A DNA stretch of 64,000 nt, taken from Candidatus Binatia bacterium. GTDB taxonomy: Bacteria > Desulfobacterota > Binatia > Bin18. How positions within the stretch are numbered: position 1 is the stretch's first letter; every line of letters begins with the position of its first letter. The DNA is taken from contig OY761159.2 of the NCBI GenBank assembly GCA_963664395.2, positions 3,424,001-3,488,000 of the forward strand. The letters run 5' to 3'. A program made the position numbers and the translations under genes. Under the pieces are notes generated by a model. It ran no database searches. It had not been told where the DNA came from and saw only the letters and a list, made by a program, of their open reading frames with translations. Below, one piece after another: positions 2,342 through 34,281 of the stretch.

Positions 2342-3472
2342 ATGACGGACTGGACCAACACCCGGTTGAATCTGCGGTATCGGTGGAAAACGGTGCTCAT
2401 CTGGGGCATCGGCATCGTGGGGGCATGTGTGGTGGCGTTATGGAGTGGGCGGGCGGACGCCTGGGTGCAAGACTACCAGCCCTTTCCCGATGGCAACGCC
2501 CCCGTTGTCGTCCATCGGTTTTGCCGCGGCCCTGCATGCGGTTCTCTCTCTCAACGGGATTGGCAACAGACCATCCGGTCAGTCGTGGCCGAGTGGAACA
2601 ACACGGGGTCCGCCTTTATGTTTGAAGAGCGAGGGCTCCGCAATACCGACGATCCGTGCCGCCTGCCTGGGGCCGTAGCTGTGATCGTGACCGACCCTGC
2701 GTCCCTGTGCCCAGGAGACGGGCCACTTCGCTACAATGCGAGAACGGAGTTCGGGGGAAGACAAGCACGGGTTTATATCAATGCCACCACCCGCTCTGCT
2801 CGATCCCTGAGCAGCCTTCGCCGGATGCTCCTGCACGAATTCGGCCATGTGGCGGGGCTTAATCACCCGGATGCTGCTGGACAGAATGTGACGGCCGTTA
2901 TGAATGGCACCGTCTATTACGATCACTTACAGGCCGATGATATTGCCGGCATTCAGGCGCTCTATCCAGCATCGGAGGCCCTGGCTGGCCTCCTGGAGAA
3001 CCCAGGAGACGGTTCGTCTCGGAGCGGGATCGGAATTATCTCAGGCTGGGTATGTGAGGCGAATGAGGTGACAATCGAACTGAGTGGAGATTTCTATAAG
3101 CAAGTCTGGAAGGCGGCGTATGGGACCAACCGCCCAGACACCTGGGATGTGTGCGGGGATGGGAACAACGGGTTTGGACTGCTGTTCAACTGGAACCGGC
3201 TGGGCGATGGAAAGCATAGGGTCGTGGCGCTCGTCGATGGAGTCGAACTCGGCCGGGCCACAGTGACCGTGACGACGCTCGGGGAGGAGTTCCTGCGCGG
3301 AGCCAAAGGGGAGTACGTCCTTGAGGACTTTCCCTCCCCCGGCCGTTCGGTCGTGATTGAGTGGGAAGAATCCCTTCAGAACTTCGTCATCAGACCAAGT
3401 GGGGATGAGCCAGAAGAACCACAGGAGTGCCAGTACCCGGAGATCCCGGGGGCGTGCGGGGACGATGGGTAG
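2342..3472 (+). CDS. secreted matrixin-like (peptidase M10/metzincin) metalloprotease with conserved C-terminal repeat domain
   Basis: AGGAGG RBS; N-terminal hydrophobic segment; HEFGHVAGLNH zinc motif and Met-turn (AVMN). C-terminal LENPG...SGWVC...YGT.R.DT...CGD..NGFGLLFNWN domain shared with 30268..34281. Confidence 0.85.
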   Translation: MTDWTNTRLNLRYRWKTVLIWGIGIVGACVVALWSGRADAWVQDYQPFPDGNAPVVVHRFCRGPACGSLSQRDWQQTIRSVVAEWNNTGSAFMFEERGLRNTDDPCRLPGAVAVIVTDPASLCPGDGPLRYNARTEFGGRQARVYINATTRSARSLSSLRRMLLHEFGHVAGLNHPDAAGQNVTAVMNGTVYYDHLQADDIAGIQALYPASEALAGLLENPGDGSSRSGIGIISGWVCEANEVTIELSGDFYKQVWKAAYGTNRPDTWDVCGDGNNGFGLLFNWNRLGDGKHRVVALVDGVELGRATVTVTTLGEEFLRGAKGEYVLEDFPSPGRSVVIEWEESLQNFVIRPSGDEPEEPQECQYPEIPGACGDDG

Positions 3473-3485
3473 GGTCTCAGTTTGA
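3468..3485. repeat. solo TIR of the same MITE/IS family
   Basis: GGTAGGGTCTCAGTTTGA matches the reverse complement of the MITE right TIR at 17/18 positions and supplies the TAG stop of the matrixin gene. Confidence 0.55.
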
Positions 3486-3516
3486 CACTCCCCTAACCGT
3501 CAGGCACAAAAGAGAA

Positions 3517-3540
3517 AAGCCCTAGCAAAAGCTAGGGCTT
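3517..3540. terminator. hairpin, possible terminator
   Basis: AAGCCCTAGC-AAAA-GCTAGGGCTT perfect inverted repeat downstream of the matrixin gene. Confidence 0.5.
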
Positions 3541-3596
3541 AACCGAAGATTACCGCGTCCTGTTGGCGCAGGACACGGAGAAAGTGAGGCGCTCTC

Positions 3597-3836
3597 ATGC
3601 GTCAACGTACCCCTCGCCCTGCGGGCCGTCAAGACATCCCTGAGGAACAGCTTGCGGACAAAGTAGCGGCGTGTGAGATCGGACTCAGTGCTCTCCACGC
3701 CCTTGCGAAATTCGGTAATCCCGACTGGCATCAGGCGTTCAACCAAGAACTCAGCGCACAAGTTCGAGGTAAGGGTCTCGAACCCGCTGTTGCCAGAGCA
3801 CTGGAGCGGATGTTTGACGTGCGTTTGACTTCCTGA
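3597..3836 (+). CDS. hypothetical protein (79 aa)
   Basis: GAGG RBS and ATG start; helical-looking sequence; no family recognised. Confidence 0.4.
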   Translation: MRQRTPRPAGRQDIPEEQLADKVAACEIGLSALHALAKFGNPDWHQAFNQELSAQVRGKGLEPAVARALERMFDVRLTS

Positions 3837-3996
3837 CCCGGTGGGGCGTTTGCTCGCGCTTGGCCCGCCACTCGGCTTGGGCCTCCTGCGAGCGCTTCCT
3901 GTCTGCACGGACGATCTGCGCAACCCGTTGCTCAACGGCGGGGGCGTTGCACCTGACTTGTTCACGATAGACGTATTCAAGAAGCATAGACTGTCA

Positions 3997-4105
3997 TCAA
4001 CCCCCACCCACCAAGTCTTGATACAACAACCGCTGCCCCACACAGCCGGCTACCACATGCGCCATTTGGTCCATCGTCCCCGCCTCCCGGATATTCTGCC
4101 GATAA
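3997..4105 (-). pseudogene. IS1595-family transposase C-terminal remnant
   Basis: RQNIREAGTMDQMAHVVAGCVGQRLLYQDLV resembles the typical IS1595 transposase end (RHNIR..DT.DQM..V..GM.GKRL.Y.DL). It lies immediately inside a GGGAATTATA end; the rest of the gene is absent. Confidence 0.7.
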
Positions 4106-4122
4106 ATAGGTTTATAATTCCC

Positions 4123-4155
4123 AACAAAAGACGCCCGTTCGGCGCGTCTTTTGTT
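4123..4155 (-). terminator. intrinsic terminator of yfbR
   Basis: AACAAAAGACGC-loop-GCGTCTTTTGTT hairpin directly after the stop codon. Confidence 0.75.
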
Positions 4156-4732
4156 AACCCAATTCGTCGAGAGTGAGACGGAAACTCGGGACAAAGGTCT
4201 CCAGAAAATAGCGTACCTCCGGCAGGTCAATCTGCTCAACCGTGTCCTTGAGCGCCTGTTCGGCCTGTGAAAACTCCTGATTGCCTGCGCTGACCTCTTC
4301 CAGGCATTTGAGATACGCACACAGCTTGTCTGCGGCTTTTACCAGCTCTGTGTGGTCGTGGTCGGCTTCATCAGCCAGAAAGAAGGGTTGGTAGTCGTCT
4401 CTGAGTTCTTCGGGCAGCATGCTGAACAGCTTGTGCACCGCGGTCTGCTCAATGGTCTTATAGGCGGTCTTGATCTCAGGGTTAAAATACTTGACCGGTG
4501 TGGGCAGGTCGCCGATCAAGACCTCGCCAACATCGTGGTAGAGGGCCAGAGTTGCGGCTCGCTCCGGGTTCACCTCGCCGGAAAAAAGGCGATTCCGAAT
4601 AACGGCTAACATATGGGCAACCAGCGCGACCTGCAGGCTGTGTTCCTGGATGTTTTCCGGATAGGCGCTATGCATCAGACCCCAGCGCCGAATAAATTTC
4701 ATGCGAGAAAGATACGCAAACAGATGGCTCAT
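4154..4732 (-). CDS. yfbR: 5'-deoxynucleotidase (HD domain)
   Basis: MSHLFAYLSRMKFIRRWGLM...ENIQEHS...YHD...GDLPTPVKY...ADKLCAYLKC...GNQEF. Confidence 0.93.
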   Translation of the reverse strand: MSHLFAYLSRMKFIRRWGLMHSAYPENIQEHSLQVALVAHMLAVIRNRLFSGEVNPERAATLALYHDVGEVLIGDLPTPVKYFNPEIKTAYKTIEQTAVHKLFSMLPEELRDDYQPFFLADEADHDHTELVKAADKLCAYLKCLEEVSAGNQEFSQAEQALKDTVEQIDLPEVRYFLETFVPSFRLTLDELG

Positions 4733-4777
4733 AAGAGACTCCGCATTCGTTCTGCCCGGATCAAGAGTGAAGCCCCG

Positions 4778-6013
4778 TCAGCCTGGGATCATTCCAAATA
4801 CGCGTAAGAATTGAAAGACGCCCAAGCCCGTCACAATGAGCACAACCGCGCTGCCCGCCATATTGGCCAGGGGGCCGTTTGTGTACGCGCCGAGGAGATT
4901 CTCCTTATTCATGACGAACAGGAGACAGCCGGCAAGGAGGGGGAGTAAGCACGCGTTGACCGCTTGGGCAAGCAGGATAGCCATCAGCGGGTGCTGCCCA
5001 AAAAAGGCCAGCCCTGTCCCAATCAGGACGATCGCACTCCACACCAGTCGAACCTTCCCGCTATGGCCGTCTCCTGACCAGCCCAGCACCCCGGCCGTGG
5101 CATAGGCGGCGGCAAGTGGGGCGGTGACGGCACTGGTCAACCCGGCGGCAAACAGGCCGGTCGCAAAAAGGAGACGCGCGTGTGAGCCGACAAGCGGCTC
5201 AAGTTGTCTGGCTATGGAGGCGGCATTTTCCAATGGCATCCCCTGGCCAAAAAAAGCCGAGGCCGCGGTTGCGACCATGGCCAGGGTGAGAACACCACCC
5301 AGACTGATCGAGAGCAGCGTATCGGCACGTGCCTCACGCAGTGCTTGTGGAGCGCGCATTGTAGCCGGCCACTTGGCTTGGACCGTACTGGCGTGCAGAA
5401 ACAAATTGTACGGAACGACTGTGGTGCCGATCAGCGCCATCACTGTCACAAATGACCCGGGGGGTATGGTCGGGCTGAAGAAGCCGGACAAGATGTCCGA
5501 GAGTGCTGGTTGGACGAGAAGAGCCGTCAGCAGAAAGACCCCACTCATGAGCACAACGAGCAGAACCAGCACGCGCTCAATAGCCGCATACGTCCCGGAC
5601 CACAGCAACCCAAAGGCCAGACCGCCAATGAGCAGGGTCCAGGCTGAGGCCGGGAGCCCGGAGACATCGGCTAAGGCCACCGCCGCGCCAAGGATATTGC
5701 CCATCTCAAACGCGGCGTTGCCACAGCCAATGCCGATGACCACAAGGGTCAGGAGCGGGATACGGAGGAGTGGGGTCTGAATAACCGTCCGCAACGCTTC
5801 GCCTAATCCACTGCGCGCAACAACACCGAGTCGGGCCGCCATTTCTTGCAGGACGAGTGTTGCAAAAATGGAAAACCCTACCGCCCACACCAGGGCAAAC
5901 CCAAACTGTGCCCCTGCGATACTAGCGGTCGTTACGGTCCCCGGACCAATAAAGGCGGCGGCAACGAGAAACCCAGGACCAAAGAGACTCTTGCGCTGCA
6001 TGCCTGAGTCCAT
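4778..6013 (-). CDS. NRAMP-family (YcsG-like) transporter
   Basis: FGPGFLVAAAFIGPGTVTT, QEMAARLG, GTTVVPYNLFLH; about 11 TM helices. Start uncertain. Confidence 0.85.
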   Translation of the reverse strand: MDSGMQRKSLFGPGFLVAAAFIGPGTVTTASIAGAQFGFALVWAVGFSIFATLVLQEMAARLGVVARSGLGEALRTVIQTPLLRIPLLTLVVIGIGCGNAAFEMGNILGAAVALADVSGLPASAWTLLIGGLAFGLLWSGTYAAIERVLVLLVVLMSGVFLLTALLVQPALSDILSGFFSPTIPPGSFVTVMALIGTTVVPYNLFLHASTVQAKWPATMRAPQALREARADTLLSISLGGVLTLAMVATAASAFFGQGMPLENAASIARQLEPLVGSHARLLFATGLFAAGLTSAVTAPLAAAYATAGVLGWSGDGHSGKVRLVWSAIVLIGTGLAFFGQHPLMAILLAQAVNACLLPLLAGCLLFVMNKENLLGAYTNGPLANMAGSAVVLIVTGLGVFQFLRVFGMIPG

Positions 6014-6163
6014 AGCATGTTTATGTGGTATAGGCCGAGACAGGTGAGAGTGAACCTCCTTTTTGAGGCACACCGCACAGCCCCTGCTGAGGCAACACCG
6101 TCTCGGGAATGGTCATCGCCCGGCGCGGATGGCGCGGATAGGGCAGGCGGCCGGCCGCGCTGG

Positions 6164-7243
6164 CTAATAGCGCGCCATAACCTGCTCGGAGAAATCCTTG
6201 AACACCGTGCGCGCGGCTGCCATGGGGGGCAGGAGCGTCACTTCTTTCAGGCCGGCCTTTTCGACCGCCCGGAGCTGCTCGATGATTTCCGCCGGCTCAC
6301 CAATCAGACAGGTCGCCTGGATTGCTTCGGGCGTGACAAAGCGGCGCTCTTCGGGCACGAGAAAGGTGCAGTGGCCGTTGTGAAGCTGGAGGTAGCGCTT
6401 GTCCGGCGGCGTCTGCATCTGCTCGACGTGAGCGCAGTATTCATCCCAGATGCCTCTATAGCCGGCGGGGATAACTTCCTCACTGCCGGTTTGTTGATAT
6501 ATTTCGTACACGAAGTGGATAATGGCGGCGACCTGAGAGCCGCACATCTCAATGACCCGATCCGAGGTCAGGGACTCTCCGGGTTGCAGCACAACGGCCG
6601 TTGTAAAAGCCGCGGTATGGAAACTGTCGGGCAATGTCCGCCCCGCCTGTTCCGCCCCTGCTTGGACCTGTTGCCAATCGTTGAGAAAGGCGTCCGGTCC
6701 GGGTTTCACCCCTGCGACCCAGCCGTCCCCAAACTCACCGGTAGTTTTAAGCGCCCGCGGCCCATTGGCAGCGACAATCAGCGGAATCGGATCGTCCAAA
6801 TTCAGGAAGTGCAAGTCCTGATGAAGAAAACGGATCGTGCGCGTTGCGTCGTTGTACGTGTATTCAACTTCTTCCCCTTGGAGGAGGGTTCTGACCACCC
6901 GTAGATACTCTCGGAAGTCTCGAATACGCATCGGCTGCATACCCATGACCCGCATAGCCGTATGGCCGGTGCCAATACCTAAAAAGACTCGGCCGGGTGC
7001 CATGCGATTAATAGAAGCAATGGAGTGGGCGGTGACTGGGGCGATTCTGGTCCCGGGGATGGCAACTCCCGTCCCAATACGGATACGTGACGTGTGCTGG
7101 GCGGCCAGGGCCAAGGTGGCGTAACAGTCCGACCAGATCATCTGCGAGTCTGGGACCCAGGCCCTGTCATAGCCCAGCTCTTCCGCATAGGTGATCATTT
7201 GCCAGTCATCGATTTTCGTGGCTACACACACACCAAACTGCAT
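6164..7243 (-). CDS. LLM-class flavin-dependent oxidoreductase
   Basis: AEELGYDRAWVPDS...TSRIRIGTGV...PGRVFLGIGTG...AANGPRAL. Confidence 0.9.
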   Translation of the reverse strand: MQFGVCVATKIDDWQMITYAEELGYDRAWVPDSQMIWSDCYATLALAAQHTSRIRIGTGVAIPGTRIAPVTAHSIASINRMAPGRVFLGIGTGHTAMRVMGMQPMRIRDFREYLRVVRTLLQGEEVEYTYNDATRTIRFLHQDLHFLNLDDPIPLIVAANGPRALKTTGEFGDGWVAGVKPGPDAFLNDWQQVQAGAEQAGRTLPDSFHTAAFTTAVVLQPGESLTSDRVIEMCGSQVAAIIHFVYEIYQQTGSEEVIPAGYRGIWDEYCAHVEQMQTPPDKRYLQLHNGHCTFLVPEERRFVTPEAIQATCLIGEPAEIIEQLRAVEKAGLKEVTLLPPMAAARTVFKDFSEQVMARY

Positions 7244-7261
7244 GGTCTGCCCTCCTCGTGG

Positions 7262-9646
7262 TCAAGCGGCTGCCGCGGTTTTTGCCCGCTCAATCGCCGT
7301 CAGTACCCGCTCCGGGGTGAGCGGAATGCTAGTAACCTGTAAGCCCAATGGAGACAGCGCATCGGCGACTGCATTGGCGATCGCGGCTGGAGGCGCAATG
7401 GCACCGCCTTCACCCATTCCTTTAATTCCCCCCCTGCTGAAAGGCGAGGGCGTTTCAATGTGGCCGATCTCAACACGGGGAATATCCATGGCTGTGGGCA
7501 CGAGATAATCCATCAGCGTGCCGGTTAAGAACTGTCCGTTCTCATCATAGATGGCATGTTCATACATGGCCGTGCCGATACCCTGGGCGACACCGCCCTG
7601 AATTTGTCCGTCAACAATGATGGGGTTAATAATCCTGCCGCAGTCCTCAACAACGATATAGCGCAGCAGGCTGATCTGCCCGGTTTCAACATCCACCTCG
7701 ACCGTTGCCAGGTGAGTCGCATTGGAATGCGTTGCCGGCGGGGGTTCATAATTTGACGTTGCCTCCAGGCCGGGTTCGTCTTCCGGTGCTAAATTGCTTG
7801 ACGCGACTATGGCGTGATAGGCGATCGTCTTAATCGGCATGAGCGTGCTCCCGTCCAGTTTGCGTGTCACCATGCCGTTGGCCAATGCGAGATCATCCGG
7901 CGGAATTTCACTGAGGCGTGAGGCCGTGCGCAAAATCTTTTCGCGGATTTTTGTGGCGGCTCCAATAATCGCGCCACCGCTGGTCACTGCGGTGCGGCTC
8001 CCCCAGGTTCCCCAGCCATACGGCACAATGGTTGTGTCGTTCTGGATAACTCTTACATCCTCAAAGGCCACGCCTAATTCGTCGGCGGCCACTTGGGCAA
8101 GCGTCGTCTGATGGCCTTGTCCATGTGACGACGAGCCGGCCAGGACCGTCACTTTGCCGGCAACATCCATACGGACAGTCGCCGATTCGTAGCCGCCCAG
8201 GGGGAGGCCCATGATATTCCAAAACGAAGAGCCCAGGGCGGTGCCTTCGATGTAACAACCCAGGCCCACACCAAGATAGCGACCGGCTTGCCGGGCGCGT
8301 TCCTGTTCAGCGCGGAAGTCCGCATAGCCCAACATGCCCAGCGCCTTGTGTAAGGATTCCTGGTGACTGCCGCTTTCGATCTCTGCCCCGGTAATGGTGG
8401 TATAGGGGTGCTCGTCCTGGCGGATCATATTCCGCAGGCGGATCTCTACCGGATCAAGACCGAGCTGCTGCGCGCCAAGATTCAGCAGACGCTCCATGAC
8501 CAGGATGGCAATCGGCAGGCCCACGCCGCGGTAAGCGCCCAGTGTGACTTTATTGGTGACTATGGACACCGCTTCGTAGCGATAGGCGGGAATCTTATAC
8601 GGACCGGGCAGGGCGGATGCTGCGTGCCCGGCTTCAAGCGCAGAGCTGAACGGAAAGGCCGAATACGCGCCAACGTCGTTCAGAAAGCGGGCTTTGAGTC
8701 CGAGGATCGTTCCGTCGTTTTTCAGGGCGATCTCGGCCTGAACGATTTGATGCTTGGCGTGCATTGCCGCGACCATATTTTCACGTCTATCCTCAATCCA
8801 CTTGATCGGACAGCCAAAACGACGGGCGAAGAAGGCAATCAGGATTTCCTCGGGAAACACATGCGCCTTGGGTCCAAAGCCGCCGCCCACGTCCGGGGCG
8901 ATGGTGCGGATATGGTGTTCGGGAAAGTCTAAAAAGAGGGCGATATTTGAACGTAACACGTGCGGAATCTGGGTCGAAGACCAAACCGTGAGTGAGTCGG
9001 TGGAGGACTCATAGGCGGCCAGACAGCCGCGCGTTTCCATGGGCAGAGACATGTGGCGGCCCGTTGTAAAACGCTCAGTCACAACACAGTCAGCCGCCTG
9101 AAACGCGGCATCGACCTCGCCCATGCTGGCTTCCAGGGTCTGCATGACGTTGTCGCCCCAGTCTTCATGTGCCAGGGGGGCGTCCGGCTCCAGCGCCTGT
9201 TCCATGTCCCAGAGGACGTCGAGCGGGTCGTACTCTACGTCGACCAGCGCGGCTGCATCCTCGGCCACATAGCGATCTGTGGCAATAACGGCCACAACCA
9301 TCTCACCCACAAACCGGACTTTTCCTCGGGCCAGGACGGGCCAATCGCAGGACTTGTGAGTGGGCGCGGCTATGGGATCAAATTCAACTCGTAGCGGTTT
9401 TATAACGTCGGCGACATCCTCGCCCGTTATCACCGCATGGACGCCGGGGTGGGCTGCCGCCGCATGCGTATCAATGCTGAGGAGACGCGCGTGGGCATAC
9501 GGACTGCGGACAAAGGCGACCGCCAGTGTATCGGGCAGATGGATATCGTCCACATACTGACTTTTGCCCAGGAGCATACGCGGGTCTTCAACCCGCTTGA
9601 CCTCGGCTCCGACCATCTTTCCCGTGCCAGCAAGACTGGTTGCCAT
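7262..9646 (-). CDS. xanthine dehydrogenase/CoxL-family molybdopterin-binding subunit
   Basis: VKRVEDPR, GGGFGPK, AYRGVG loop, SHGQGHQT, GTWGSR, GQIQGGVAQGIG, KGMGEGG. Confidence 0.92.
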   Translation of the reverse strand: MATSLAGTGKMVGAEVKRVEDPRMLLGKSQYVDDIHLPDTLAVAFVRSPYAHARLLSIDTHAAAAHPGVHAVITGEDVADVIKPLRVEFDPIAAPTHKSCDWPVLARGKVRFVGEMVVAVIATDRYVAEDAAALVDVEYDPLDVLWDMEQALEPDAPLAHEDWGDNVMQTLEASMGEVDAAFQAADCVVTERFTTGRHMSLPMETRGCLAAYESSTDSLTVWSSTQIPHVLRSNIALFLDFPEHHIRTIAPDVGGGFGPKAHVFPEEILIAFFARRFGCPIKWIEDRRENMVAAMHAKHQIVQAEIALKNDGTILGLKARFLNDVGAYSAFPFSSALEAGHAASALPGPYKIPAYRYEAVSIVTNKVTLGAYRGVGLPIAILVMERLLNLGAQQLGLDPVEIRLRNMIRQDEHPYTTITGAEIESGSHQESLHKALGMLGYADFRAEQERARQAGRYLGVGLGCYIEGTALGSSFWNIMGLPLGGYESATVRMDVAGKVTVLAGSSSHGQGHQTTLAQVAADELGVAFEDVRVIQNDTTIVPYGWGTWGSRTAVTSGGAIIGAATKIREKILRTASRLSEIPPDDLALANGMVTRKLDGSTLMPIKTIAYHAIVASSNLAPEDEPGLEATSNYEPPPATHSNATHLATVEVDVETGQISLLRYIVVEDCGRIINPIIVDGQIQGGVAQGIGTAMYEHAIYDENGQFLTGTLMDYLVPTAMDIPRVEIGHIETPSPFSRGGIKGMGEGGAIAPPAAIANAVADALSPLGLQVTSIPLTPERVLTAIERAKTAAAA

Positions 9647-9757
9647 AGTGTGTTCCTTCATCATTCCCCTCTTCCTGTTGGAGAGAGGACCAGGGCGAGG
9701 GGGGAATCTCTACGACGTGAGTCTGGCAGTGTGGTAAAAGGGTGTCAAGACTTTTGC

Positions 9758-9839
9758 TTGACAGTTCACAAGAGAACGGTATACGCCACATTAAAAGGAA
9801 GCTGTCCACATATGACACTGTCTTCACAAGAGAACGGTA
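9758..9839 (+). promoter_or_regulatory. candidate sigma70 promoter with 17-bp direct repeat
   Basis: TTGACA (9758-9763) and TATACG (9780-9785). TTCACAAGAGAACGGTA occurs at 9765-9781 and 9823-9839. Confidence 0.45.
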
Positions 9840-10978
9840 CGAAAGGGAGAGGATCGCAGTTCGCGTCTCGTATGACCCGGACTCAAGCGCCTTTGCACCA
9901 AGCCCGACATCTCCCGGGTGACTTTTACACCTCGCACGAGACCTATGAATTAGAAAAGGAACGCATCTTCCAAAAAGATTGGCTCTGCGTCGGCCGAGTG
10001 GAGGAGTTTGAAAAGCCGGGTGACTACCTCACCCTGTGTATTGCGGATGAGCCGATTGTGGTCGTCCGCGATGAAGAGAGCCAACTCAGGGCCTTTTATA
10101 ACGTCTGTCGTCATCGTGGGACTGAGGTGGCGGCTGGTCAGGGCAATACCAAGCGGTTTGCGTGTCCGTATCATGGCTGGACGTATGACCTGTGCGGGCG
10201 GCTCCGAGGCGCGGCCTATACACAAGAGATCGAGAATTTCGACATGCGGCAGTACAGCCTGGTGCCACTTAAGCTTGACACCTGGGGCGGGTTTATTTTT
10301 ATCAATTTCAATCCGGATAGTGAAAGTCTGCTGGAATTCTTAGGCGACTTTCCTGAGATCTTTGGGCCATACCAACCCGAAGATCTACGTTTAGCCATTA
10401 AGTTCGTCATCGAATATGATTGTAACTGGAAAGCCACGGCTGAAAATCTGGTTGATATTTATCATCTGGCAACGCTGCATGCTTCTTCGTTCGGTCCGCA
10501 CCAGCCGCTTGAGTCGTACGAATTTCAGCTCAAACCGTGGGGCTATTGCGGTCGCTTTATAGGTGTGAGTCCTATGACGCCCGATGGCCGGCCCCGCTTT
10601 GATTTTATGCCCTGGCTGTCGGGCGAACATCTTGAGAAGGGCTATTCCAGCCACCTCCAGCCTAACATGGGCTTTTATGCCAGGCAGGATAATATTCACT
10701 ATATTACCGGATGGCCGATTGGCGCAAATCGTAGCATGGCTCTCGTCCATATGCTCTTCCCTAAGCAGTGTTTTAGTCTGCCGGATTTTAAGGAACGCGT
10801 CAAAGTCTATGAGGACTTTTTGCACCTTGCTCTGGAGGAAGACATGAGCATGGTGCAGTCTTTACAACGCGGCTTTCGGTCCCGAGCCTATCAGCCAGGG
10901 CCGATGTCGAAGTACGAGATCGCCGTGCATCATGTGATGAATTATTATCTGGACAAAGTTTTTGGGGAGCAACAATAA
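9812..10978 (+). CDS. Rieske non-heme iron oxygenase alpha subunit
   Basis: CRHRG...CPYHGW Rieske motif; ENLVDIYHLATLH and EED mononuclear Fe ligands. Start moved to ATG 9812 (AAGGA RBS). Confidence 0.9.
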   Translation: MTLSSQENGTKGRGSQFASRMTRTQAPLHQARHLPGDFYTSHETYELEKERIFQKDWLCVGRVEEFEKPGDYLTLCIADEPIVVVRDEESQLRAFYNVCRHRGTEVAAGQGNTKRFACPYHGWTYDLCGRLRGAAYTQEIENFDMRQYSLVPLKLDTWGGFIFINFNPDSESLLEFLGDFPEIFGPYQPEDLRLAIKFVIEYDCNWKATAENLVDIYHLATLHASSFGPHQPLESYEFQLKPWGYCGRFIGVSPMTPDGRPRFDFMPWLSGEHLEKGYSSHLQPNMGFYARQDNIHYITGWPIGANRSMALVHMLFPKQCFSLPDFKERVKVYEDFLHLALEEDMSMVQSLQRGFRSRAYQPGPMSKYEIAVHHVMNYYLDKVFGEQQ

Positions 10979-11004
10979 CTGGCCCGCAGACAAGGAGCAA
11001 TGTC

Positions 11005-12057: not shown

Positions 12058-12083
12058 GAAGGAGCCAGTAAGGAGACAGTTGC

Positions 12084-13262: not shown

Positions 13263-13265
13263 ACC

Positions 13266-14059: not shown

Positions 14060-14104
14060 AGCCTCGGGCCAGGTTTAGCGCGTTCTCCGAGGAGGGCCGG
14101 CTGC

Positions 14105-15160: not shown

Positions 15161-15190
15161 GAGCGACTGGGCCGACAGGAGGGGAAGAGC

Positions 15191-20902: not shown

Positions 20903-20925
20903 CGACAAGAGCGTCCTGAGACCGT

Positions 20926-23348: not shown

Positions 23349-23393
23349 CGGGGAGCGAGTGATGCAAGGAGATGGGGTAAAGGCGTGCAAAGT

Positions 23394-26562: not shown

Positions 26563-26685
26563 AAGGTCACCTTTGGCAGTTGGAGTCAGTGAAGAAGTGT
26601 ATCCGTTCCTGAGAGAGCTGTCAGGGCCGTAGGTCGAATTAGCGGAGCGTAATCCGGCACCAGAGCTCACCTCGTACGTTTCGAT

Positions 26686-28632: not shown

Positions 28633-28813
28633 GGACTTCCTTGCCCCCTTGCTTCTTCAATAAGCGTTCCGTGTCCTGATAGCGTAAGCAAGCCGGAGGA
28701 CACAAGGCGTACCGGATTCGATGCGCTTCGACTCACCTGAAAATTTTGCGCGTTGGGTTGCATAATTGCTACTGACCAAATACTGAGGCTTTGAATCAAA
28801 AAAGGAGAAACGC

Positions 28814-29872
28814 ATGACCCAATATGTCTACGCTGGTGCGTCGCAGTTTTCCAGGAACGGCCACACCGCTCCACTCAGCGGCCTGTGTCGTCAAAGAGTC
28901 GGGGAGGCGGAGTGGCAGATTTTGAGCCAGGGCCTCCCGGAGCAGGCTGAGATTCGGGCCATTCTTATCCACCCTGATAATCCGCAGCTGCTATATGTCG
29001 GCACCCAGCAGGGGCCGTACCGCAGTACGGATGGCGGGGCGCACTGGGAGCGGCTGGATTTTCCGGACGCCGGGATGGCCGTATGGTCGTTGCTGTTTCG
29101 CCCAAATGATCCGCAGGTCCTGTATTGCGGCACCGCCCCTGCTGCCATCTATCGGAGTGACAACGGCGGCGACACCTGGAAACGCCTGACCCTTGCCGAG
29201 CCTGCCGGCATGGTTGAAATGGGTTTTCCGTGCCGTATCATCGACCTTGCAGCTGATCCCAACAATCCGGATGCGCTGTATGCCGGCCTGGAGGTCGGCG
29301 GAGTCATCCGCAGCGGAGACGGCGGCGACACCTGGGAGGACTGTACCAAAGCACTGCTCCAGTTTGCCGAGCAGGATTATTTGAAGAGTCGTATTTTGAG
29401 TAATACCGATGCCGAAGGCATGATGGACACGCATGCCGTGGCGCTGAGCGCGGCTCAGCCGGGCACCGTCTTTCTCGCTACACGCATGGGTCTCTTCCAA
29501 AGCCCGGACCAGGGCCAGACCTGGGCTGATATGGAAATCTGGCGCTCTTCGCCGTTGACGTATACGCGCGATATCCAGGTCGCCCCCAGTGACCCCAACA
29601 CGCTCTACGCCGCCCTGAGTCCGGGGGCGCTCAGCTTGAACGGCTCTGTCTATCGCAGCCCGGACCTGGGTCAGACCTGGCAGCGCTTTGCTCAGGGCAT
29701 CACCGCCCGGAGTACGATGATGACCGTTGCTCTCAGCCGCCAGGACCCGCAGCTCGCGTACTGTGGCACACGGGAAGGCCAGGTGTTCGGCACCCAGGAC
29801 GGCGGGACGACCTGGGGCGAGTCTGCGCTGCCGGACGGATGCCAGAACGTCTATACCTTGGCATGCGGATAA
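28814..29872 (+). CDS. BNR/Asp-box beta-propeller protein
   Basis: Repeated S.DGG.TW motifs (RSTDGGAHW, RSDNGGDTW, RSGDGGDTW, SPDQGQTW); AGGAG RBS. Confidence 0.85.
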   Translation: MTQYVYAGASQFSRNGHTAPLSGLCRQRVGEAEWQILSQGLPEQAEIRAILIHPDNPQLLYVGTQQGPYRSTDGGAHWERLDFPDAGMAVWSLLFRPNDPQVLYCGTAPAAIYRSDNGGDTWKRLTLAEPAGMVEMGFPCRIIDLAADPNNPDALYAGLEVGGVIRSGDGGDTWEDCTKALLQFAEQDYLKSRILSNTDAEGMMDTHAVALSAAQPGTVFLATRMGLFQSPDQGQTWADMEIWRSSPLTYTRDIQVAPSDPNTLYAALSPGALSLNGSVYRSPDLGQTWQRFAQGITARSTMMTVALSRQDPQLAYCGTREGQVFGTQDGGTTWGESALPDGCQNVYTLACG

Positions 29873-29917
29873 AAGCCGCTGGGCAGGGATTGAAGAATAG
29901 AATACCTACCAAACGTA

Positions 29918-30159
29918 GGTAGTGTCTCACTTTGAAATTGCTTCTCCTCGCCGCTGATTGCCTGCCCATCTTTTTCGACGCCCTCGTCATTTTTTTTCAC
30001 TTCCTACTAATTTTGGTAGGGACAAGGGCGGCAAATTATGCACAGTATCCCTTTATCAGCGAGGCTAAAATTATCAGTGAGGCCAAAACACTGCGGCAGG
30101 CGGAGTCAAGGTCCGCCATACGAGAGCGAAAGCCAAAGGATTCAAACTGAGACACTACC
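29918..30159. mobile_element. MITE copy 2 (242 bp)
   Basis: Same TIRs as copy 1. 8-bp TSD CAAACGTA at 29910-29917 and 30160-30167. Confidence 0.9.
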
Positions 30160-30163
30160 CAAA

Positions 30164-30200
30164 CGTACGGGAGTCGCGACCCGTGCGATGGCGAATAGGC
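30164..30200 (+). promoter_or_regulatory. conserved leader hairpin motif (copy 2)
   Basis: CGTACGGG-AGTCGCGA-CCCGTGCG-N3-GCGAATAGGC. Confidence 0.5.
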
Positions 30201-30267
30201 GGAATCATCATTCCATCAATTGGAGCGTGGAGGCGATTCCGAAGTGACGGAAGCAGGACTCACGACA

Positions 30268-33200
30268 ATGCGGCAGCACGCAGGACGCGTACTGCTGGGA
30301 GCGATGCTGGCCTTAGTCGGGTCAAACGCTTCGGCCCAAACCCCGGCGGTAACGGTGTATTTCGGCGACTCCGCCTACTCTGTAAACGAAGGCGGCAGCG
30401 TGGCGGTGCAAGTCCAATTGAGCGCCGACCCCGAGCGCGCCCTGACCATTCCCCTGGAAGCGACACCCGGCGCCGCTATTGTGACCATCGCCGACAACGA
30501 CGATCCGGCGGTGACGGTCTCGTTTGGCTCGGCGACCTCCACCGTCACCGAAGGCTGGACCGTAGACGTGATGGTGACGCTGAGCGCCGACCCCGAGCGG
30601 ACCGTGACGATTCCAGTCGAGGCGTCGCCTGCTGCGTCCGGCGATTATTCGATACCCGGCAGTGTCACGTTTAATGCCGGCGAGACGCAAAAGCCCGTCA
30701 ATTTCGCCACGGTCGACGACACGGTGGTCGAAAACGCGGAGACGTTCACCTTATCTTTCGGCAGTGACCTGCCAGAGGGAGTCAGCGCGAGCGGTCAGAC
30801 CACCACCCAGGTGACTATTACGGACGACGACGCACCGGACCCCGGCGGGCTGGAGCTGAGCGCGCTCGCGGTGACCGATGGGGTGGGAAGCATGTACCCG
30901 GTCTTTAATCCCAGGACGTACCACTACGCCATACGTTGCCCGGATGCCACCACCTTACGCGTGACGGCAACCGCGGGAGACGCCTTGCACCAACTGACAC
31001 TGAACAATATCCCGGTACCGGGCATGGAACTGGACAAAAACGTCGTCGTGGACAGCGACCATGATATCGCAATCGAACTCAGCGGCGGCGGTGACTCGGT
31101 GACCTATATCGTGCACTGCATCCCCTCGAATTTTCCCAACATCAAGATCACCAAGAAGCAGGCTGGTGTGTCGGATGGCCTGATGTTCTTCACGCCTGCG
31201 CGGAATCTTGGCTCTCGAACTCCGGCCTTTCTGGCCATCATGGACAACAACGGCGTGCCCAGATTCGTCAGACCCTCCCCGGACAAGATTCCGCTGAACT
31301 TCCGCCGTCATGTCACCGACCTCGAGATCGACGGACGGCCCGTACACTATTCGGTCACGCACCGCCTCGGGTCGTCGTTTGACGGCGGGCACTCCCTGCT
31401 CGATGCCTCCTTCAACGTCATCGGGACCGTAGAAACGACGCACGCGGATCACACCGCCAGCCTGCATGATTTTCTGATCACCGAAGACGACACCTTCCTG
31501 TTTTTCTCCCACGGGACTGTGACCCGCGACGTTGGGGGGAATGAAAAAAGTACAGTCGAGAACGTTATTGAGGAGGTCTCGCCAACCGGAGAAGTATTGT
31601 GGAGTTGGAACTCCTGGGACCATCTGACGATCGATCCCGACTGTCTGGAGTATAGGTATGGCTTGAGATCGGACCCGCCCATTACTGCGCACATCAACGC
31701 CCTCACCTTGATCGACGGAGATGTTGTCGCGTCATCCAGGGGCTGCGCGCAAGTCGTGAGGATCAACCGGTCCGGGAAATCGGAGACGGATGACGGCACC
31801 GACCTCGTGTGGCAACTCGGCGGGACGGACCAGGACGCCGACGACCGCGCATTCCTGGCGATCAGCGGCGACGAGAGCGGCAGGAATGAATTTTGCCGGC
31901 AGCACCATGCAACGGAGACCGCTGCGGGGACGGTGGTGTTGTTCGACAACGGCGTGAACTGCCTGTCCGCGGAAATGGGCGAGCCCAATGGGCGGGAAAG
32001 AGGCGACCTCCCAACGTTCTCCAGAGCCGTAGAGTATGACATCGACACGGCCACCGGCACGGCCGAGTTCCACCGCGAGGTCCGGCTGGACCGCAGGTAC
32101 GGCTATGCTCCTTTTACCGGCAGCGTCGACATACTGGAAAACGGGCACTGGCTGATCAACTGGGGCTATCTGCGCTATGCGGATCCCAGCCTGAGCGTGG
32201 AGGAATATTCGATAGCCATCAGCGAGGTGGACGCTTCTGGCACCGAGTTGTTGCAAGTCAAAACTTGGGAGTGGGAGGGCACCTCTCGTTACAGCACGTT
32301 CCGGGTGTACCGGGAATCCGAGGCCGACGTGGAAATCCCGCTGAATCTCCCGGTGACGCTGACGCTGGAGAGCGAGCGAGCGGCAGAGAGCGCCGGGGAG
32401 ATGGTGTTCGAGGTCGAGCTGAGCGTGGCGAGTAGTGAGGAGATAACCGTAGACTATGAGACCGCGAATGGCACGGCGACGGCGGGCCAGGACTACACGG
32501 CACAGAGCGGCACGCTGAGGTTCCCGGCGAACAGTACGACCCCACAGGAGATCTGCGTCCCCATCCTCAACGACGCCATGGACGAGGCCGAGGAAGAGAC
32601 GTTTACAGTGCGGCTACGCAACGCGACGAACGCGACCTTGGCAGGTGGCGGGACAACCTTGACAGCGACGGGGACGATTACGGACGATGACGAGCCGGTG
32701 GTGGCGGTGTCATTCAAAGCGGCACGCTACACGGTGGACGAAGGCAAGGCCGTCGAGGTCACGGTGCGGCTGAGTGCCGACCCGGAACGCCAGGTGGAGA
32801 TTCCGTTGACGCGCACGCCTGGGAACAACGTGGAGCCGTCTGACTACTCGGGAGTGCCGGACATGGTCGTGTTCGAGAGCGGCGACCGTGAACGGAGTTT
32901 TTCCTTTATTGCTCTGGCCGACCAGGAGGAGGAGGCCGCCGAGACGGTCACCATCGACTTAGGCGTGCCGCTGCCGACCGGGGTGGAGCTGGGCAGTCCC
33001 GCTACGACGGTCGTGATGATTGGGAGGCTGTCCCCACTACCGCCACCACCACCGCCTGGCGGTGGCGGGGAGGACCGCCGTGACCTGCATGGTAACACCC
33101 CCGCCCAAGCGACCCGTGTCCGGCTGGGCAGTTCCGCGCCCTGGGCGTCTTCCACGGACGGGCAGATCAACCCGGCCAGCGAGGTGGATTACTTCACCCT

Positions 33201-34281
33201 CATGGTGCCGCAGGCCGGCGTGCTGGTGGTCCAGACCACCGGCTCCACCGCGACCGTGGGCATGGCATGGCAGGCCGGCGTGGAGCTGGGCAGCGCGGAC
33301 AGGGGCGGCGTGCGCCAGAACTTCCGGCTCAGCGTACCGGTGGCAGCCGGGCCGGTGGTGATTGCCGTGGCCGGGCAGGGGAGTCGGACCGGGAGTTATA
33401 CCGTAGAGACCCGCCTGATGGTGGGGTATCTGGAGAACCCCGGGAATACCTCCTTTCAGAGCGGCATCGGCGTGCTGTCGGGCTGGGTGTGTGCGGCCGA
33501 GGAAGTTGAGATCACGCTCGGGGCGTTGACCCCGCAGATGGCCGCCTACGGCACCGAGCGACTGGACACGGCCAGCAAGTGTGGGGATACGGACACCGGG
33601 TTTGGGTTGCCGTTCAACTGGAACCTGCTGGGCGACGGGGCACATGAAGTGGTCGCCCTGGTCGATGGTGTGGAATTGGACCGGGCCACCGTGACGGTGA
33701 CGACGCTAGGGCAGGAGTTTCTGCGCGGTGTTGAAGGCACGTGTACGGTGTCCGACTTTCCGAGCCTGGGCAAGACGGTCACCCTCCTGTGGCAAGAGGC
33801 GAGGCAGAACTTCGCCATTGCGGACGGCGCAGCCCCGAGTGGGGAGACTCGTTCCGGGGCGGCGGACGTGGGGTATCTGGAGAATCCGAGCCCGAACTCG
33901 TTCCAGAGTGGGGTAGGGGTGCTCTCCGGCTGGGTGTGTGAGGCCGAGGAAGTGGAGATCATGCTGGGGGACTTAGCCCCGCAGATGGCGGCCTACGGCA
34001 CCGAGCGGCTGGACACGGCCAGCGAGTGTGGGGATACGGACAATGGGTTTGGCTTATTATTCAACTGGAACCTGCTGGGCGCCGGGGAGTATGTCGTGGT
34101 GGCCCGGGTGGATGGGGAAGAACTGGGCCGGACCACCGTGCGGGTGACGACCCTGGGGGCGGAGTTTCTGCGCGGAGTTGCGGGGGAATGTACGGTCGCA
34201 GACTTCCCCATGACAGGCGAGACGGTCACGCTGGAGTGGCAACAGAACAGTCAGAACTTTGTGATTACGGATTTCGAGTGA
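30268..34281 (+). CDS. large secreted multidomain protein: Calx-beta repeats, arylsulfotransferase (ASST)-like propeller, two conserved C-terminal repeat domains
   Basis: Signal peptide ending ASA-Q; VTI.DDD Calx-beta motifs; ASST motifs LHDF, HINAL, FCRQHHA, LFDNG, SRAVEY; poly-Pro linker; tandem LENP...SGWVC domains at 33424-33819 and 33871-34278. Confidence 0.85.
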   Translation: MRQHAGRVLLGAMLALVGSNASAQTPAVTVYFGDSAYSVNEGGSVAVQVQLSADPERALTIPLEATPGAAIVTIADNDDPAVTVSFGSATSTVTEGWTVDVMVTLSADPERTVTIPVEASPAASGDYSIPGSVTFNAGETQKPVNFATVDDTVVENAETFTLSFGSDLPEGVSASGQTTTQVTITDDDAPDPGGLELSALAVTDGVGSMYPVFNPRTYHYAIRCPDATTLRVTATAGDALHQLTLNNIPVPGMELDKNVVVDSDHDIAIELSGGGDSVTYIVHCIPSNFPNIKITKKQAGVSDGLMFFTPARNLGSRTPAFLAIMDNNGVPRFVRPSPDKIPLNFRRHVTDLEIDGRPVHYSVTHRLGSSFDGGHSLLDASFNVIGTVETTHADHTASLHDFLITEDDTFLFFSHGTVTRDVGGNEKSTVENVIEEVSPTGEVLWSWNSWDHLTIDPDCLEYRYGLRSDPPITAHINALTLIDGDVVASSRGCAQVVRINRSGKSETDDGTDLVWQLGGTDQDADDRAFLAISGDESGRNEFCRQHHATETAAGTVVLFDNGVNCLSAEMGEPNGRERGDLPTFSRAVEYDIDTATGTAEFHREVRLDRRYGYAPFTGSVDILENGHWLINWGYLRYADPSLSVEEYSIAISEVDASGTELLQVKTWEWEGTSRYSTFRVYRESEADVEIPLNLPVTLTLESERAAESAGEMVFEVELSVASSEEITVDYETANGTATAGQDYTAQSGTLRFPANSTTPQEICVPILNDAMDEAEEETFTVRLRNATNATLAGGGTTLTATGTITDDDEPVVAVSFKAARYTVDEGKAVEVTVRLSADPERQVEIPLTRTPGNNVEPSDYSGVPDMVVFESGDRERSFSFIALADQEEEAAETVTIDLGVPLPTGVELGSPATTVVMIGRLSPLPPPPPPGGGGEDRRDLHGNTPAQATRVRLGSSAPWASSTDGQINPASEVDYFTLMVPQAGVLVVQTTGSTATVGMAWQAGVELGSADRGGVRQNFRLSVPVAAGPVVIAVAGQGSRTGSYTVETRLMVGYLENPGNTSFQSGIGVLSGWVCAAEEVEITLGALTPQMAAYGTERLDTASKCGDTDTGFGLPFNWNLLGDGAHEVVALVDGVELDRATVTVTTLGQEFLRGVEGTCTVSDFPSLGKTVTLLWQEARQNFAIADGAAPSGETRSGAADVGYLENPSPNSFQSGVGVLSGWVCEAEEVEIMLGDLAPQMAAYGTERLDTASECGDTDNGFGLLFNWNLLGAGEYVVVARVDGEELGRTTVRVTTLGAEFLRGVAGECTVADFPMTGETVTLEWQQNSQNFVITDFE

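What the first reader, a model, noticed from the sequence alone, without database searches (positions are those of the whole stretch)
2342..34281. Modular secreted-protein family: different enzyme cargos joined to one conserved ~133-aa C-terminal domain
Seen: a matrixin-like protease (2342-3472, one copy at about 2987-3392) and a Calx-beta/arylsulfotransferase protein (30268-34281, two tandem copies at about 33424-33819 and 33871-34278) end in the same domain, G.LENP...SG.G..SGWVC.A.EV.I...AAYGT.R.DT...CGD...GFGL.FNWN.LG.G.H/Y.VVA.VDG.EL.R.TV.VTTLG.EFLRG...DFP..G..V...W.E/Q..QNF.I. Two Cys are invariant. Both proteins have N-terminal export signals and are otherwise unrelated. Inference: the domain is a lineage-specific surface-anchoring or sorting module, analogous in role to SLH or T9SS-type C-terminal domains, onto which host-interaction enzymes are shuffled. 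Both genes also share an upstream hairpin and a MITE insertion (separate findings).
Basis: partly seen in the sequence, partly recalled or inferred. Interest (0 to 1): 0.78.

Follow-up and report, generated by a model that had tools for sequence, protein, structure and literature searches.

The report
Shared end-module on Binatia secreted proteins
An uncultured Binatia bacterium attaches the same undescribed pair of antibody-like domains to about 75 different secreted enzymes and adhesion-type proteins, probably to hold them all on one common surface target, and two sister species have replaced it on their secreted proteins with a different, unrelated module.

Summary
The ~134-aa domain ("X") occurs once in the matrixin gene and twice in the Calx-beta/arylsulfotransferase gene. 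It occurs 146 times in 87 open frames of this 5.04-Mb genome. It has no Pfam or NCBIfam model and matches 3461 protein clusters in public data. Where records are named, they are almost all Binatia.

The core (residues 1-96) is predicted as an Ig-like sandwich. A 40-residue extension becomes confident only in the tandem model. The usual unit is a fixed D1-linker-D2 cassette that moves as a whole. It is joined to its cargo by a low-complexity linker and often a PPC-like module.

It is terminal, but not always C-terminal: 185 of 250 proteins carry it at the C-terminus, 35 at the N-terminus, 20 hold little else, and 10 carry it internally.

Two complete genomes of the same genus lack X. There, large secreted proteins end in four copies of an unrelated 118-aa domain ("Y"). 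X and Y never co-occur in 54 family genomes.

Best reading (0.45): a multivalent retention or anchoring cassette for a lineage-specific ligand. A sorting tag is less likely (0.25). No function was tested.

The parts
2342..3472 (+). Matrixin-like (M10) secreted metalloprotease gene carrying one X domain
   Evidence: ORF. Pfam Peptidase_M10, E 1e-7. HEFGHVAGLNH at 2834-2866. Hydrophobic N-terminal segment.
2984..3394 (+). Single X domain, followed by a 25-aa Cys-containing tail
   Evidence: Alignments. Genome match E 2.0e-76.
30268..34281 (+). Calx-beta / arylsulfotransferase (ASST) secreted protein gene ending in the linker, PPC-like module, D1 and D2 cassette
   Evidence: ORF. Pfam Calx-beta E 8.3e-36 and Arylsulfotrans E 4.8e-23. 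Signal-like N-terminus MRQHAGRVLLGAMLALVGSNASAQ.
33034..33069 (+). Pro/Gly low-complexity linker between cargo and cassette
   Evidence: PLPPPPPPGGGG located. A poly-G or poly-P run lies upstream of the module in 23 of 29 paralogues that have the module.
33082..33420 (+). PPC-like (pre-peptidase C-terminal-like) module directly upstream of D1
   Evidence: A jackhmmer search seeded with this stretch finds it 0-3 aa before D1 in 29 of 53 C-terminal-class ORFs. Its relatives in G110 and G281 coincide with Pfam PPC hits, up to E 5e-12. The window copy itself gave no PPC hit.
33421..33822 (+). X domain, copy D1 of the tandem cassette
   Evidence: (E 9.2e-80).
33823..33867 (+). 15-aa inter-domain linker (DGAAPSGETRSGAAD)
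   Evidence: The linker is 15-17 aa in 36 of 41 tandem pairs of the genome.
33868..34278 (+). X domain, copy D2, ending ...QNFVITDFE at the last residue before the stop codon (34279-34281)
   Evidence: (E 4.6e-80). Conserved C-terminal ending in paralogues.
29968..30165 (.). 198-bp repeated element upstream of the ASST gene; 88 bp of it also lie upstream of the matrixin gene at about 2042-2129
   Evidence: blastn. The genome holds 11 copies, 5 of them within 500 bp of the start of an X-bearing gene.

Best explanation
X is an extracytoplasmic domain of about 134 aa with no description in the libraries searched. Its core is an Ig-like sandwich with an invariant Cys pair (a disulfide is inferred). 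A 40-residue C-terminal extension follows the core.

The working unit is normally a fixed two-domain cassette, D1, a 15-17-aa linker, then D2. A flexible low-complexity linker, often with a PPC-like module, tethers it to either end of Sec-exported cargo.

I propose that the cassette is a multivalent binding (retention) module. It would hold a large and varied secretome (proteases, sulfo- and glyco-enzymes, lipase, nuclease, adhesin-type repeats) on one common, lineage-specific ligand. The most likely ligand is a polymer of the cell's own envelope or matrix. In role this resembles SLH, cell-wall-binding or CBM repeats.

Shown here: the family, its size, its predicted fold, its architecture and its distribution, and its replacement by an unrelated cassette in two congeners.

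Inferred: binding, the nature of the ligand, the disulfide, and export across the outer membrane by a general route such as T2SS.
For: 1. Scale and cargo diversity. The genome holds 146 copies in 87 open frames (12 of these copies lie on small contigs that partly duplicate contig 1). The cargo families are unrelated to each other. In public data X matches 3461 clusters at E<=1e-3.

2. Export. A crude hydrophobicity scan finds a signal-like N-terminus in 53 of 74 ORFs of 200 aa or more. In the N-terminal class the domain starts 0-8 residues after an AxA-type site. Two Cys are invariant in 34 diverse copies.

3. Position-independent but terminal, as for binding modules. Of 250 proteins, 185 carry it at the C-terminus, 35 at the N-terminus, 20 hold little else and 10 carry it internally. 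It is joined to cargo by poly-G/P/S/T linkers.

4. Repeats, which suggest avidity. 50 of 87 open frames have two copies. The inter-domain linker is 15-17 aa in 36 of 41 pairs. D1 copies cluster with D1 and D2 with D2 across proteins, so the pair is one old unit. The extension rises from pLDDT 65-76 in the single-domain model to 83-93 in the tandem model, whose pTM is 0.77.

5. Fold. The best structural matches are Ig-like accessory modules of glycoside hydrolases: 6tn6 at Z 11.5, rmsd 1.8 over 84 residues, and 2bvt and the CbhA X1 modules at Z 9-10.

6. Conserved residues. Many conserved polar and aromatic residues go beyond what a scaffold needs: E5, N6, S14, R47, D49, T50, D56, N59, N66, W67, H75 and Q129.

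7. Replacement at the level of the secretome. The closed genomes G110 and G281, of the same genus, have no X even at E<=1. Their large secreted proteins (8 of 8 examined) end in four copies of a 118-aa, 4-Cys domain Y. Y is unrelated to X (hhalign probability 0.06%). In the family, 51 genomes plus G000 have X without Y, 2 have Y without X, 1 has neither and none has both. X occurs in all 10 genera of the family, so it is ancestral. By RpoB, G110 and G281 are sister species on a deep branch.

8. No dedicated machinery was seen. No recurrent neighbour gene appears in 78 related loci.
Against: - No binding, ligand or localisation was tested.
- 74% of the 250 proteins carry the cassette at the extreme C-terminus. 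The very end is conserved: the last residue is E in 42 of 61 C-terminal-class ORFs, typically ...QNFVITDVE. Y also has a conserved end. This is what a C-terminal recognition tag would show.
- The fold matches are to a very common Ig-like fold (22 chains at Z>=8) and imply no function.
- Only 2 of 5 tandem models were confident, and I could not inspect the domain-domain contacts.
- Replacing a binding module on dozens of genes at once is hard to explain, whatever the partner is.
- The 250 proteins are the top-scoring hits, which favours multi-copy proteins.
Confidence: 0.45

Rival explanations
1. Sorting or secretion tag. X (and Y in the sister lineage) would be recognised by a still unknown outer-membrane export or attachment pathway. 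It would then be cleaved, or used to link cargo covalently to the surface, as the T9SS C-terminal domain is by PorU/PorV.
For: - Extreme C-terminal position in 185 of 250 proteins, and within 10 aa of the stop in 67 of 87 own ORFs.
- A conserved last tripeptide, D-V-E-stop.
- An Ig-like sandwich, as in T9SS CTDs; the mirolase CTD 8qb1 matches at Z 8.1, rmsd 2.3 over 73 residues.
- Dozens to more than 100 cargos per genome.
- The X/Y exclusivity fits a tag that co-varies with its machinery.
Against: - 35 of 250 proteins carry the pair at the N-terminus, right after the signal peptide, and 10 carry it internally.
- The copies are repeated, two for X and four for Y, unlike the single-copy tags I recall being described (recalled, not tested here).
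- No match in G000 to SprA_N, Por_Secre_tail, Peptidase_C25 or exosortase. For three of these four searches the control genomes were also silent, so this is weak evidence.
- No conserved neighbour that could be machinery.
- The 8qb1 match lies within the general Ig-like background.
Confidence: 0.25
2. Targeting to an external substrate or host matrix. The cassette would be a lectin- or CBM-like module that binds an environmental or host polymer (for example a sulfated glycan or collagen-like matrix), not the bacterium's own surface. It would concentrate enzymes and adhesins on that material.
For: - The fold is nearest to accessory modules of glycoside hydrolases.
- The cassette is tethered by linkers at either end.
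- Cargos include sulfotransferase, GH97, proteases and cadherin/fn3/LRR/Calx-beta repeats, and sulfatases and SRCR in relatives.
- Binatota are reported in sponges (PMC9999580 and PMC9531527, passages read).
Against: - One identical module on enzymes with quite different substrates (nuclease, lipase, beta-lactamase-fold, FGE-sulfatase) suggests a common destination rather than a substrate.
- The habitat of this genome, and of most X-bearing genomes, was not established here.
- No ligand was tested.
Confidence: 0.2
3. Passive Ig-like stalk or folding and stability domain with no specific partner.
For: - Ig-like fold.
- Weak Big_7 matches: 3 of 34 copies at E>=0.015, and one three-copy ORF at 34.8 bits.
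- Many bacterial Ig-like domains are spacers (general knowledge, not tested here).
Against: - It sits at the ends of proteins, not between domains.
- The pair geometry is fixed.
- Strongly conserved polar residues and a conserved C-terminal end.
- Paralogues on unrelated cargos keep a median identity of 64%.
- Replacement by Y in two genomes, with no genome holding both.
Confidence: 0.07

Closest known systems
T9SS C-terminal domains (Pfam Por_Secre_tail PF18962; for example the mirolase CTD, PDB 8qb1)
   Same: An Ig-like sandwich at the extreme C-terminus of dozens to hundreds of unrelated secreted proteins within one lineage. The structural match is Z 8.1, rmsd 2.3 over 73 residues.
   Different: - No sequence match.
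- X is 134 aa, with an extra 40-residue extension, and is normally a tandem pair.
- 45 of 250 proteins carry it at the N-terminus or internally.
- No T9SS marker was found in G000, though the control genomes were silent too.
SLH domains and other cell-envelope-binding repeats (role as recalled; not tested here)
   Same: Repeated copies at either terminus tether many different exoproteins to one envelope polymer. This is the functional model I favour.
   Different: No homology, since no Pfam family matches at E<=10. X is predicted all-beta, apart from one short helix, and Ig-like. Binding by X has not been shown.
Ig-like accessory or X1/Fn3-like modules and Big_7 (PF17957) of glycoside hydrolases (PDB 6tn6, 2bvt, 3pe9)
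   Same: The core fold of residues 1-96: Z 11.5, 10.0 and 9.7. A few copies and relatives touch Big_7. The language-model neighbours are clusters in which 11-66% of members carry Big_7.
   Different: - Most copies fail Big_7 (31 of 34 give no hit at E<=1).
- X has an invariant Cys pair, a 40-residue extension and a fixed tandem form.
- X is expanded massively within single genomes.
PPC, the bacterial pre-peptidase C-terminal domain (PF04151)
   Same: A beta-rich module at the C-terminal side of secreted enzymes. A PPC-like module sits directly before D1 in 29 of 53 C-terminal-class ORFs.
   Different: PPC is a separate module upstream of X, not X itself. X gives no PPC match.

Membership tests
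Pfam Big_7 (PF17957), E-set Ig-like | Sequence match above the Pfam gathering score | tested here: inconclusive
   The three window copies give no family at E<=10. Of 34 diverse copies, 3 match at E 0.015 or weaker. One three-copy ORF scores 34.8 bits against a cut-off of 24.1. Some relatives carry a precomputed PF17957 hit.
Pfam Big_7 (PF17957), E-set Ig-like | Ig-like beta-sandwich fold | tested here: met
   In the AF2 model, residues 1-96 have pLDDT above 90. The VIA-align best match is 6tn6 at Z 11.5, rmsd 1.8 over 84 residues, and every top row is an Ig-like module. This rests on a predicted structure only.
T9SS C-terminal domain (Por_Secre_tail) | Sequence match to PF18962 | tested here: not met
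   A Pfam scan of the three copies at E<=10 returned no family, and none of 34 copies matched at E<=1. The genome-wide PF18962 search gave no match, but the control genomes were silent.
T9SS C-terminal domain (Por_Secre_tail) | Always at the extreme C-terminus, as a single copy | tested here: not met
   35 of 250 proteins carry it at the N-terminus and 10 internally, and 235 of 250 have two copies. In the own genome 16 of 87 ORFs have more than 40 aa after the last copy.
T9SS C-terminal domain (Por_Secre_tail) | T9SS machinery present (SprA, or a PorU-type C25 peptidase) | tested here: inconclusive
   PF14349 and PF01364 gave no match in G000, which is 95.9% complete. Nothing rang in the 14 control genomes either.
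PEP-CTERM / exosortase-type sorting | An exosortase gene, and a C-terminal transmembrane helix tag on the cargo | tested here: not met
   PF09721 gave no match in G000, while the control rang in 1 genome. The cargos end ...QNFVITDVE with no hydrophobic tail.
SLH domain | Sequence match to the SLH family | tested here: not met
   No Pfam family at E<=10 for the three window copies. The resemblance is in proposed role only.
PPC (PF04151), for the module upstream of D1 | Sequence match above the Pfam gathering score | tested here: inconclusive
   The window protein gave no PPC hit at E<=0.1. Its module aligns at 40-46% identity to regions of G110 and G281 proteins. Pfam scores those regions as PPC at 21-47 bits against a cut-off of 25.9.

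The most novel reading that the evidence does not exclude
X and Y are alternative address domains of an undescribed protein-sorting or surface-attachment system of Binatia. A dedicated receptor, translocon or ligand-synthesis locus would co-vary with the tag. A lineage could then re-tag its secretome by swapping cassettes at the low-complexity linkers.
Probability: 0.2. Interest if true: 0.85.

Novelty: new variant of a known kind. Interest (0 to 1): 0.62.

Why it matters
The cassette marks what is probably a large part of the exported, surface-directed proteome of a widespread, uncultured lineage. In this genome the X-bearing open frames of 150 aa or more total 71,047 aa, about 4% of the DNA.

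- A profile of X (alignment A3) would let annotators recognise this secretome. Today the named database entries say only 'hypothetical protein' or name the cargo.
- The X-versus-Y switch between congeners is a natural experiment. Genes that track the switch are candidates for the receptor, the ligand pathway or a sorting machine.
- If a new sorting or anchoring system lies behind it, it would join T9SS CTDs, sortase and exosortase tags and SLH as a way in which bacteria address proteins to their surface.

Tried and rejected
- PDB sequence search with X: nothing significant (best was OspA at E 0.0095). The same search with Y also found nothing.
- Foldseek on the single domain: only weak Ig-like hits, best E 7.5e-4.
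- Fold searches on the tandem model: no match to the pair as a whole. Foldseek TM-score (normalised to the query) was at most 0.24. The VIA-align rows with low rmsd align only about one domain's worth of residues, 72-89. So I cannot name a known two-domain architecture.
- Phylum-level sample: 0 of 200 other genomes had X. This was uninformative, because only 5 of them were of the same class; the class sample replaced it.
- Conserved upstream motif or k-mer among 48 X genes: only shared repeat elements between paralogues, and no enriched 8-mer.
- Recurrent neighbour genes in 78 related loci: only large metabolic paralogue families such as luciferase-like monooxygenase, SDR, amidohydrolase and CoA-transferase. 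No candidate partner emerged.
- The idea that N-terminal-class proteins are membrane-anchored scaffolds presenting X was rejected. They have no C-terminal anchor.
- Complex prediction, to test D1 against D2 with controls, was not available. Whether the two domains pack against each other therefore rests on the tandem AF2 model alone.
- ESM Atlas gave no usable hit for Y.
- Literature: four searches and passages of two papers turned up no description of this domain. Supplements were not opened.
- My first RpoB tree picked wrong shadow ORFs for G110 and G281. It was redone.
Full report
**Observation.** The window holds two genes that end in the same domain.
- The first is 2342-3472 (+), 376 aa. 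Pfam finds Peptidase_M10 at E 1e-7, and the zinc motif HEFGHVAGLNH lies at 2834-2866.
- The second is 30268-34281 (+). Pfam finds three Calx-beta stretches and an arylsulfotransferase domain.
- The protease has one copy of the domain (2984-3394), followed by 25 more residues. The second protein has two copies (33421-33822 and 33868-34278), and the second copy ends at the last residue before the stop codon.
- The copies are 59-64% identical, with 73 invariant columns including both Cys.
- Neither Pfam (E<=10) nor NCBIfam (E<=1) recognises the domain. A PDB sequence search gives nothing significant.

I call the domain X.

**Scale in this genome.**
- A profile of the three copies finds 142 matches in the window's own genome (5.04 Mb, 14 contigs, 95.9% complete).
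- My own hmmsearch over stop-to-stop frames finds 146 domains in 87 open frames. 50 frames have two copies, 33 have one, 3 have three and 1 has four.
- 12 of the 146 copies lie on small contigs, some of which duplicate contig 1. The count may therefore be slightly inflated.
- Several short frames are the 3' parts of larger genes broken at poly-Gly tracts.
- The 75 frames of 150 aa or more total 71,047 aa.
- Cargos are very diverse. The enzymes are subtilases, M4, M10, M12B-like and M14 peptidases, GH97, a pectate-lyase-like protein, glucose/sorbosone dehydrogenase with a spondin domain, GDSL lipase, a staphylococcal-nuclease homologue, a beta-lactamase-fold protein and FGE-sulfatase. The repeat types are cadherin, fn3, Calx-beta, LRR, Glug, SWM and CARDB.
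- 27 of the 73 frames scanned gave no Pfam family at E<=1e-5.

**Scale elsewhere.**
- A word-indexed search found 2941 proteins at E<=1e-3 among the 8000 candidates scored, so that number is capped.
- An exhaustive HMMER search of 1.84 billion cluster representatives found 3461 at E<=1e-3, 2456 at E<=1e-10 and 1541 at E<=1e-30.
- The only source names among the 120 proteins listed in each are 'hypothetical protein' or 'S8 family serine peptidase', from 'Candidatus Binatia bacterium' or 'Desulfurellaceae bacterium'.
- A pattern scan of one genome per species found 337 stretches that encode relatives. Of the 78 loci kept, nearly all have record titles naming Candidatus Binatia or Binatota MAGs. 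A few are labelled Thermodesulfobacteriota or Deltaproteobacteria, one is a 1.7-kb contig labelled Acidimicrobiia, and one contig is labelled Enterobacteriaceae. That scan used one motif, so divergent relatives are missed.
- Earlier notes of this scan also call this genome an uncultured Binatia bacterium.

**Taxonomic distribution.**
- In a sample of 401 genomes of the class, 70 have X. By family: f1 has it in 51 of 54 genomes plus G000, f85 in 1 of 1, f89 in 16 of 20 and f90 in 1 of 19.
- The other 16 families have it in 0 of 306 genomes.
- First-look candidate counts reach 171 in one genome.
- A phylum-level sample gave 0 of 200, but only 5 of those genomes were of the same class.

**Anatomy of the domain.**
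- An alignment of 34 diverse copies has 16 invariant positions: P7, S14, G15, G21, W22, C24, C54, F61, N66, G73, V93, T95, F100, P114, W124 and Q129. Many further polar positions are nearly invariant.
- AlphaFold2 on this alignment gives pLDDT 86.5 and pTM 0.72. Residues 1-96 score above 90. The last 40 residues, three strands, score only 65-76.
- Residues 1-96 form an Ig-like sandwich. The best VIA-align matches are the C-terminal Ig-like modules of two mannanases (6tn6: Z 11.5, rmsd 1.8, 84 residues; 2bvt: Z 10.0). Next come the sulfite-oxidase dimerisation domain (Z about 10) and the CbhA X1 modules (Z 9.7). A T9SS CTD, 8qb1, appears at Z 8.1, within the general background of 22 chains at Z>=8.
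- Foldseek gives only weak hits.
- A language-model search points to unnamed clusters in which 11-66% of members carry Big_7. Big_7 itself matches only 3 of 34 copies, at E>=0.015, and one three-copy protein above its threshold.
- X is thus a divergent Ig-like (E-set-type) family with no model of its own.

**The cassette.**
- In the 41 clean tandem pairs, the inter-domain linker is 15-17 aa in 36.
- In a tree of 115 full-length copies, first copies cluster with first copies and second with second. Mean identity is 69.2% for D1-D1, 72.6% for D2-D2 and 67.5% for D1-D2 between proteins. The pair is therefore an old unit that moves as a whole.
- Seven single N-terminal copies form a clade of their own. 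They carry SGWKC and end ...QHLE, and are fused to FGE-sulfatase, beta-lactamase-fold, nuclease and other cargos.
- In a tandem AF2 model (pLDDT 87.7, pTM 0.77), the extensions rise to pLDDT 83-93. This suggests that each extension is ordered by the neighbouring domain. Only 2 of 5 models were confident, and I could not inspect contacts.
- No solved structure matches the pair as a whole.
- Upstream of D1, 29 of 53 C-terminal-class frames have a PPC-like module 0-3 residues away. 23 of those 29 have a poly-G or poly-P run before the module. Most of the remaining frames have a low-complexity G/S/P/T/N linker directly before D1.

**Position.**
- In the own genome the last copy ends within 10 residues of the stop in 67 of 87 frames. 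In 16 frames more than 40 residues follow it.
- Among the 250 best public proteins, 185 carry X at the C-terminus, 35 at the N-terminus, 20 consist of little else and 10 carry it internally. 235 have two copies. These are top scorers, which favours multi-copy proteins.
- In N-terminal forms the domain begins 0-8 residues after an AxA-type signal-peptidase site. The pair is then followed by a low-complexity linker and the cargo. There is no C-terminal membrane anchor.
- In C-terminal forms the very end is conserved. The last residue is E in 42 of 61, and the typical ending is ...QNFVITDVE.

**The replacement cassette.**
- Three genomes of family f1 lack X even at E<=1. Two of them, G110 and G281, belong to the same genus, have only 2 and 1 contigs, and are 100% complete.
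- I looked at what their large secreted proteins carry. All 8 that I examined end in exactly four tandem copies of a different 118-aa domain, Y. Y has four conserved Cys, and the last copy ends ...VIPVKN or ...IVPVKN.
- Y has no Pfam family, only weak partial WC-rich hits. It has no PDB or Atlas relatives. It is unrelated to X by profile-profile comparison (probability 0.06%).
- Y has no match in G000. In the family it occurs in 2 of 54 genomes, G110 with 38 matches and G281 with 43. In the class sample it occurs in 2 of 401. Only 100 public proteins match it at E<=1e-5.
- Within the family, 51 genomes plus G000 have X only, 2 have Y only, 1 has neither (G430, 93% complete) and none has both.
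- The cargo parts of the 8 Y proteins find their best G000 match in an X-bearing frame in 7 of 8 cases. These matches are only 30-48% identical, over repeat modules, so this shows the same kind of cargo, not orthology.
- In a single-gene RpoB tree, midpoint-rooted, G110 and G281 are sister species (support 1.0). They sit on a deep branch next to the X-bearing G265 and G329. Their identity to G000 is similar: 82-84%, against 82.7% and 84.6%.
- X occurs in all 10 genera of the family. The simplest history is therefore loss of X and gain of Y in one lineage.

**Interpretation.** The replacement is hard to square with a passive spacer. It implies that the cassette serves a function common to the whole secretome and matched to something that can differ between lineages.

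Two readings fit: a binding (retention) module, or a sorting tag.

I favour binding (0.45) for three reasons. The module works at either end of the protein. It is linker-tethered. It is repeated (2x X, 4x Y), as avidity-based anchors are. By contrast, the sorting tags I know of are single and strictly C-terminal (recalled, not tested here).

The conserved C-terminal end and the 74% C-terminal placement keep the tag reading alive (0.25). No T9SS, C25-peptidase or exosortase marker was found in G000, but the control genomes were silent for three of these four searches. Three secretins are present, so a general T2SS-type route is possible. No partner gene recurs next to X genes in 78 related loci.

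Whether the ligand is the cell's own envelope or an external or host polymer (0.20) is open. Binatota are reported from sponges (PMC9999580 and PMC9531527, passages read). I did not establish the habitat of this genome.

**Novelty.** Four literature searches found no description of the domain. The named database entries call the proteins hypothetical or name them after the cargo. The idea of a shared terminal module is well known. This family, its two-domain form, its size and the X/Y switch appear to be undescribed.

Noticed in passing
window 29968-30165 and about 2042-2129: A 198-bp element lies upstream of the ASST gene, and 88 bp of it also lie upstream of the matrixin gene. The genome has 11 copies, 5 of them within 500 bp of the start of an X-bearing gene. 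It may be a shared promoter or 5' region spread along with the gene family rather than a random MITE.
   Followed up: partly
G110 and G281 (loci L156-L169), e.g. L156:115-1623: A second undescribed C-terminal cassette: four tandem copies of a 118-aa domain with four Cys ('Y'). It is found only in the two congeners that lack X. It has 100 public relatives and no Pfam, PDB or Atlas match.
   Followed up: yes
own genome, e.g. C1:109912-113170, C1:973159-974590, C1:4608894-4612542, C1:2800814-2804548: Several X genes are split into adjacent or overlapping frames at poly-Gly or low-complexity tracts, or carry a single in-frame stop. These could be assembly errors at repeats, pseudogenes or slippage-prone tracts. 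I could not tell which.
   Followed up: no
window 28814-29872 (+): The 352-aa ORF directly upstream of the ASST gene shows about six repeats of an S/T-x-D-x-G-x-T-W motif in its translation. From memory this resembles the Asp-box of BNR-type beta-propellers. No family search was run on it.
   Followed up: no
own genome contigs C2, C4, C13 against C1: X genes on small contigs have upstream regions 89-100% identical to loci on contig 1, for example C2:20058-23840 against C1:2747310-2750864 at 100% over 303 bp. This suggests strain variants or uncollapsed duplicates, in line with the 5.4% contamination estimate.
   Followed up: no
own genome C1:443204-445012 (L036): A 603-aa protein with a signal peptide and three X matches also gives Pfam sCache_2 and dCache_2 hits at residues 478-552. 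This is an odd pairing of X with a sensor-type domain, or else an overlap artefact.
   Followed up: no
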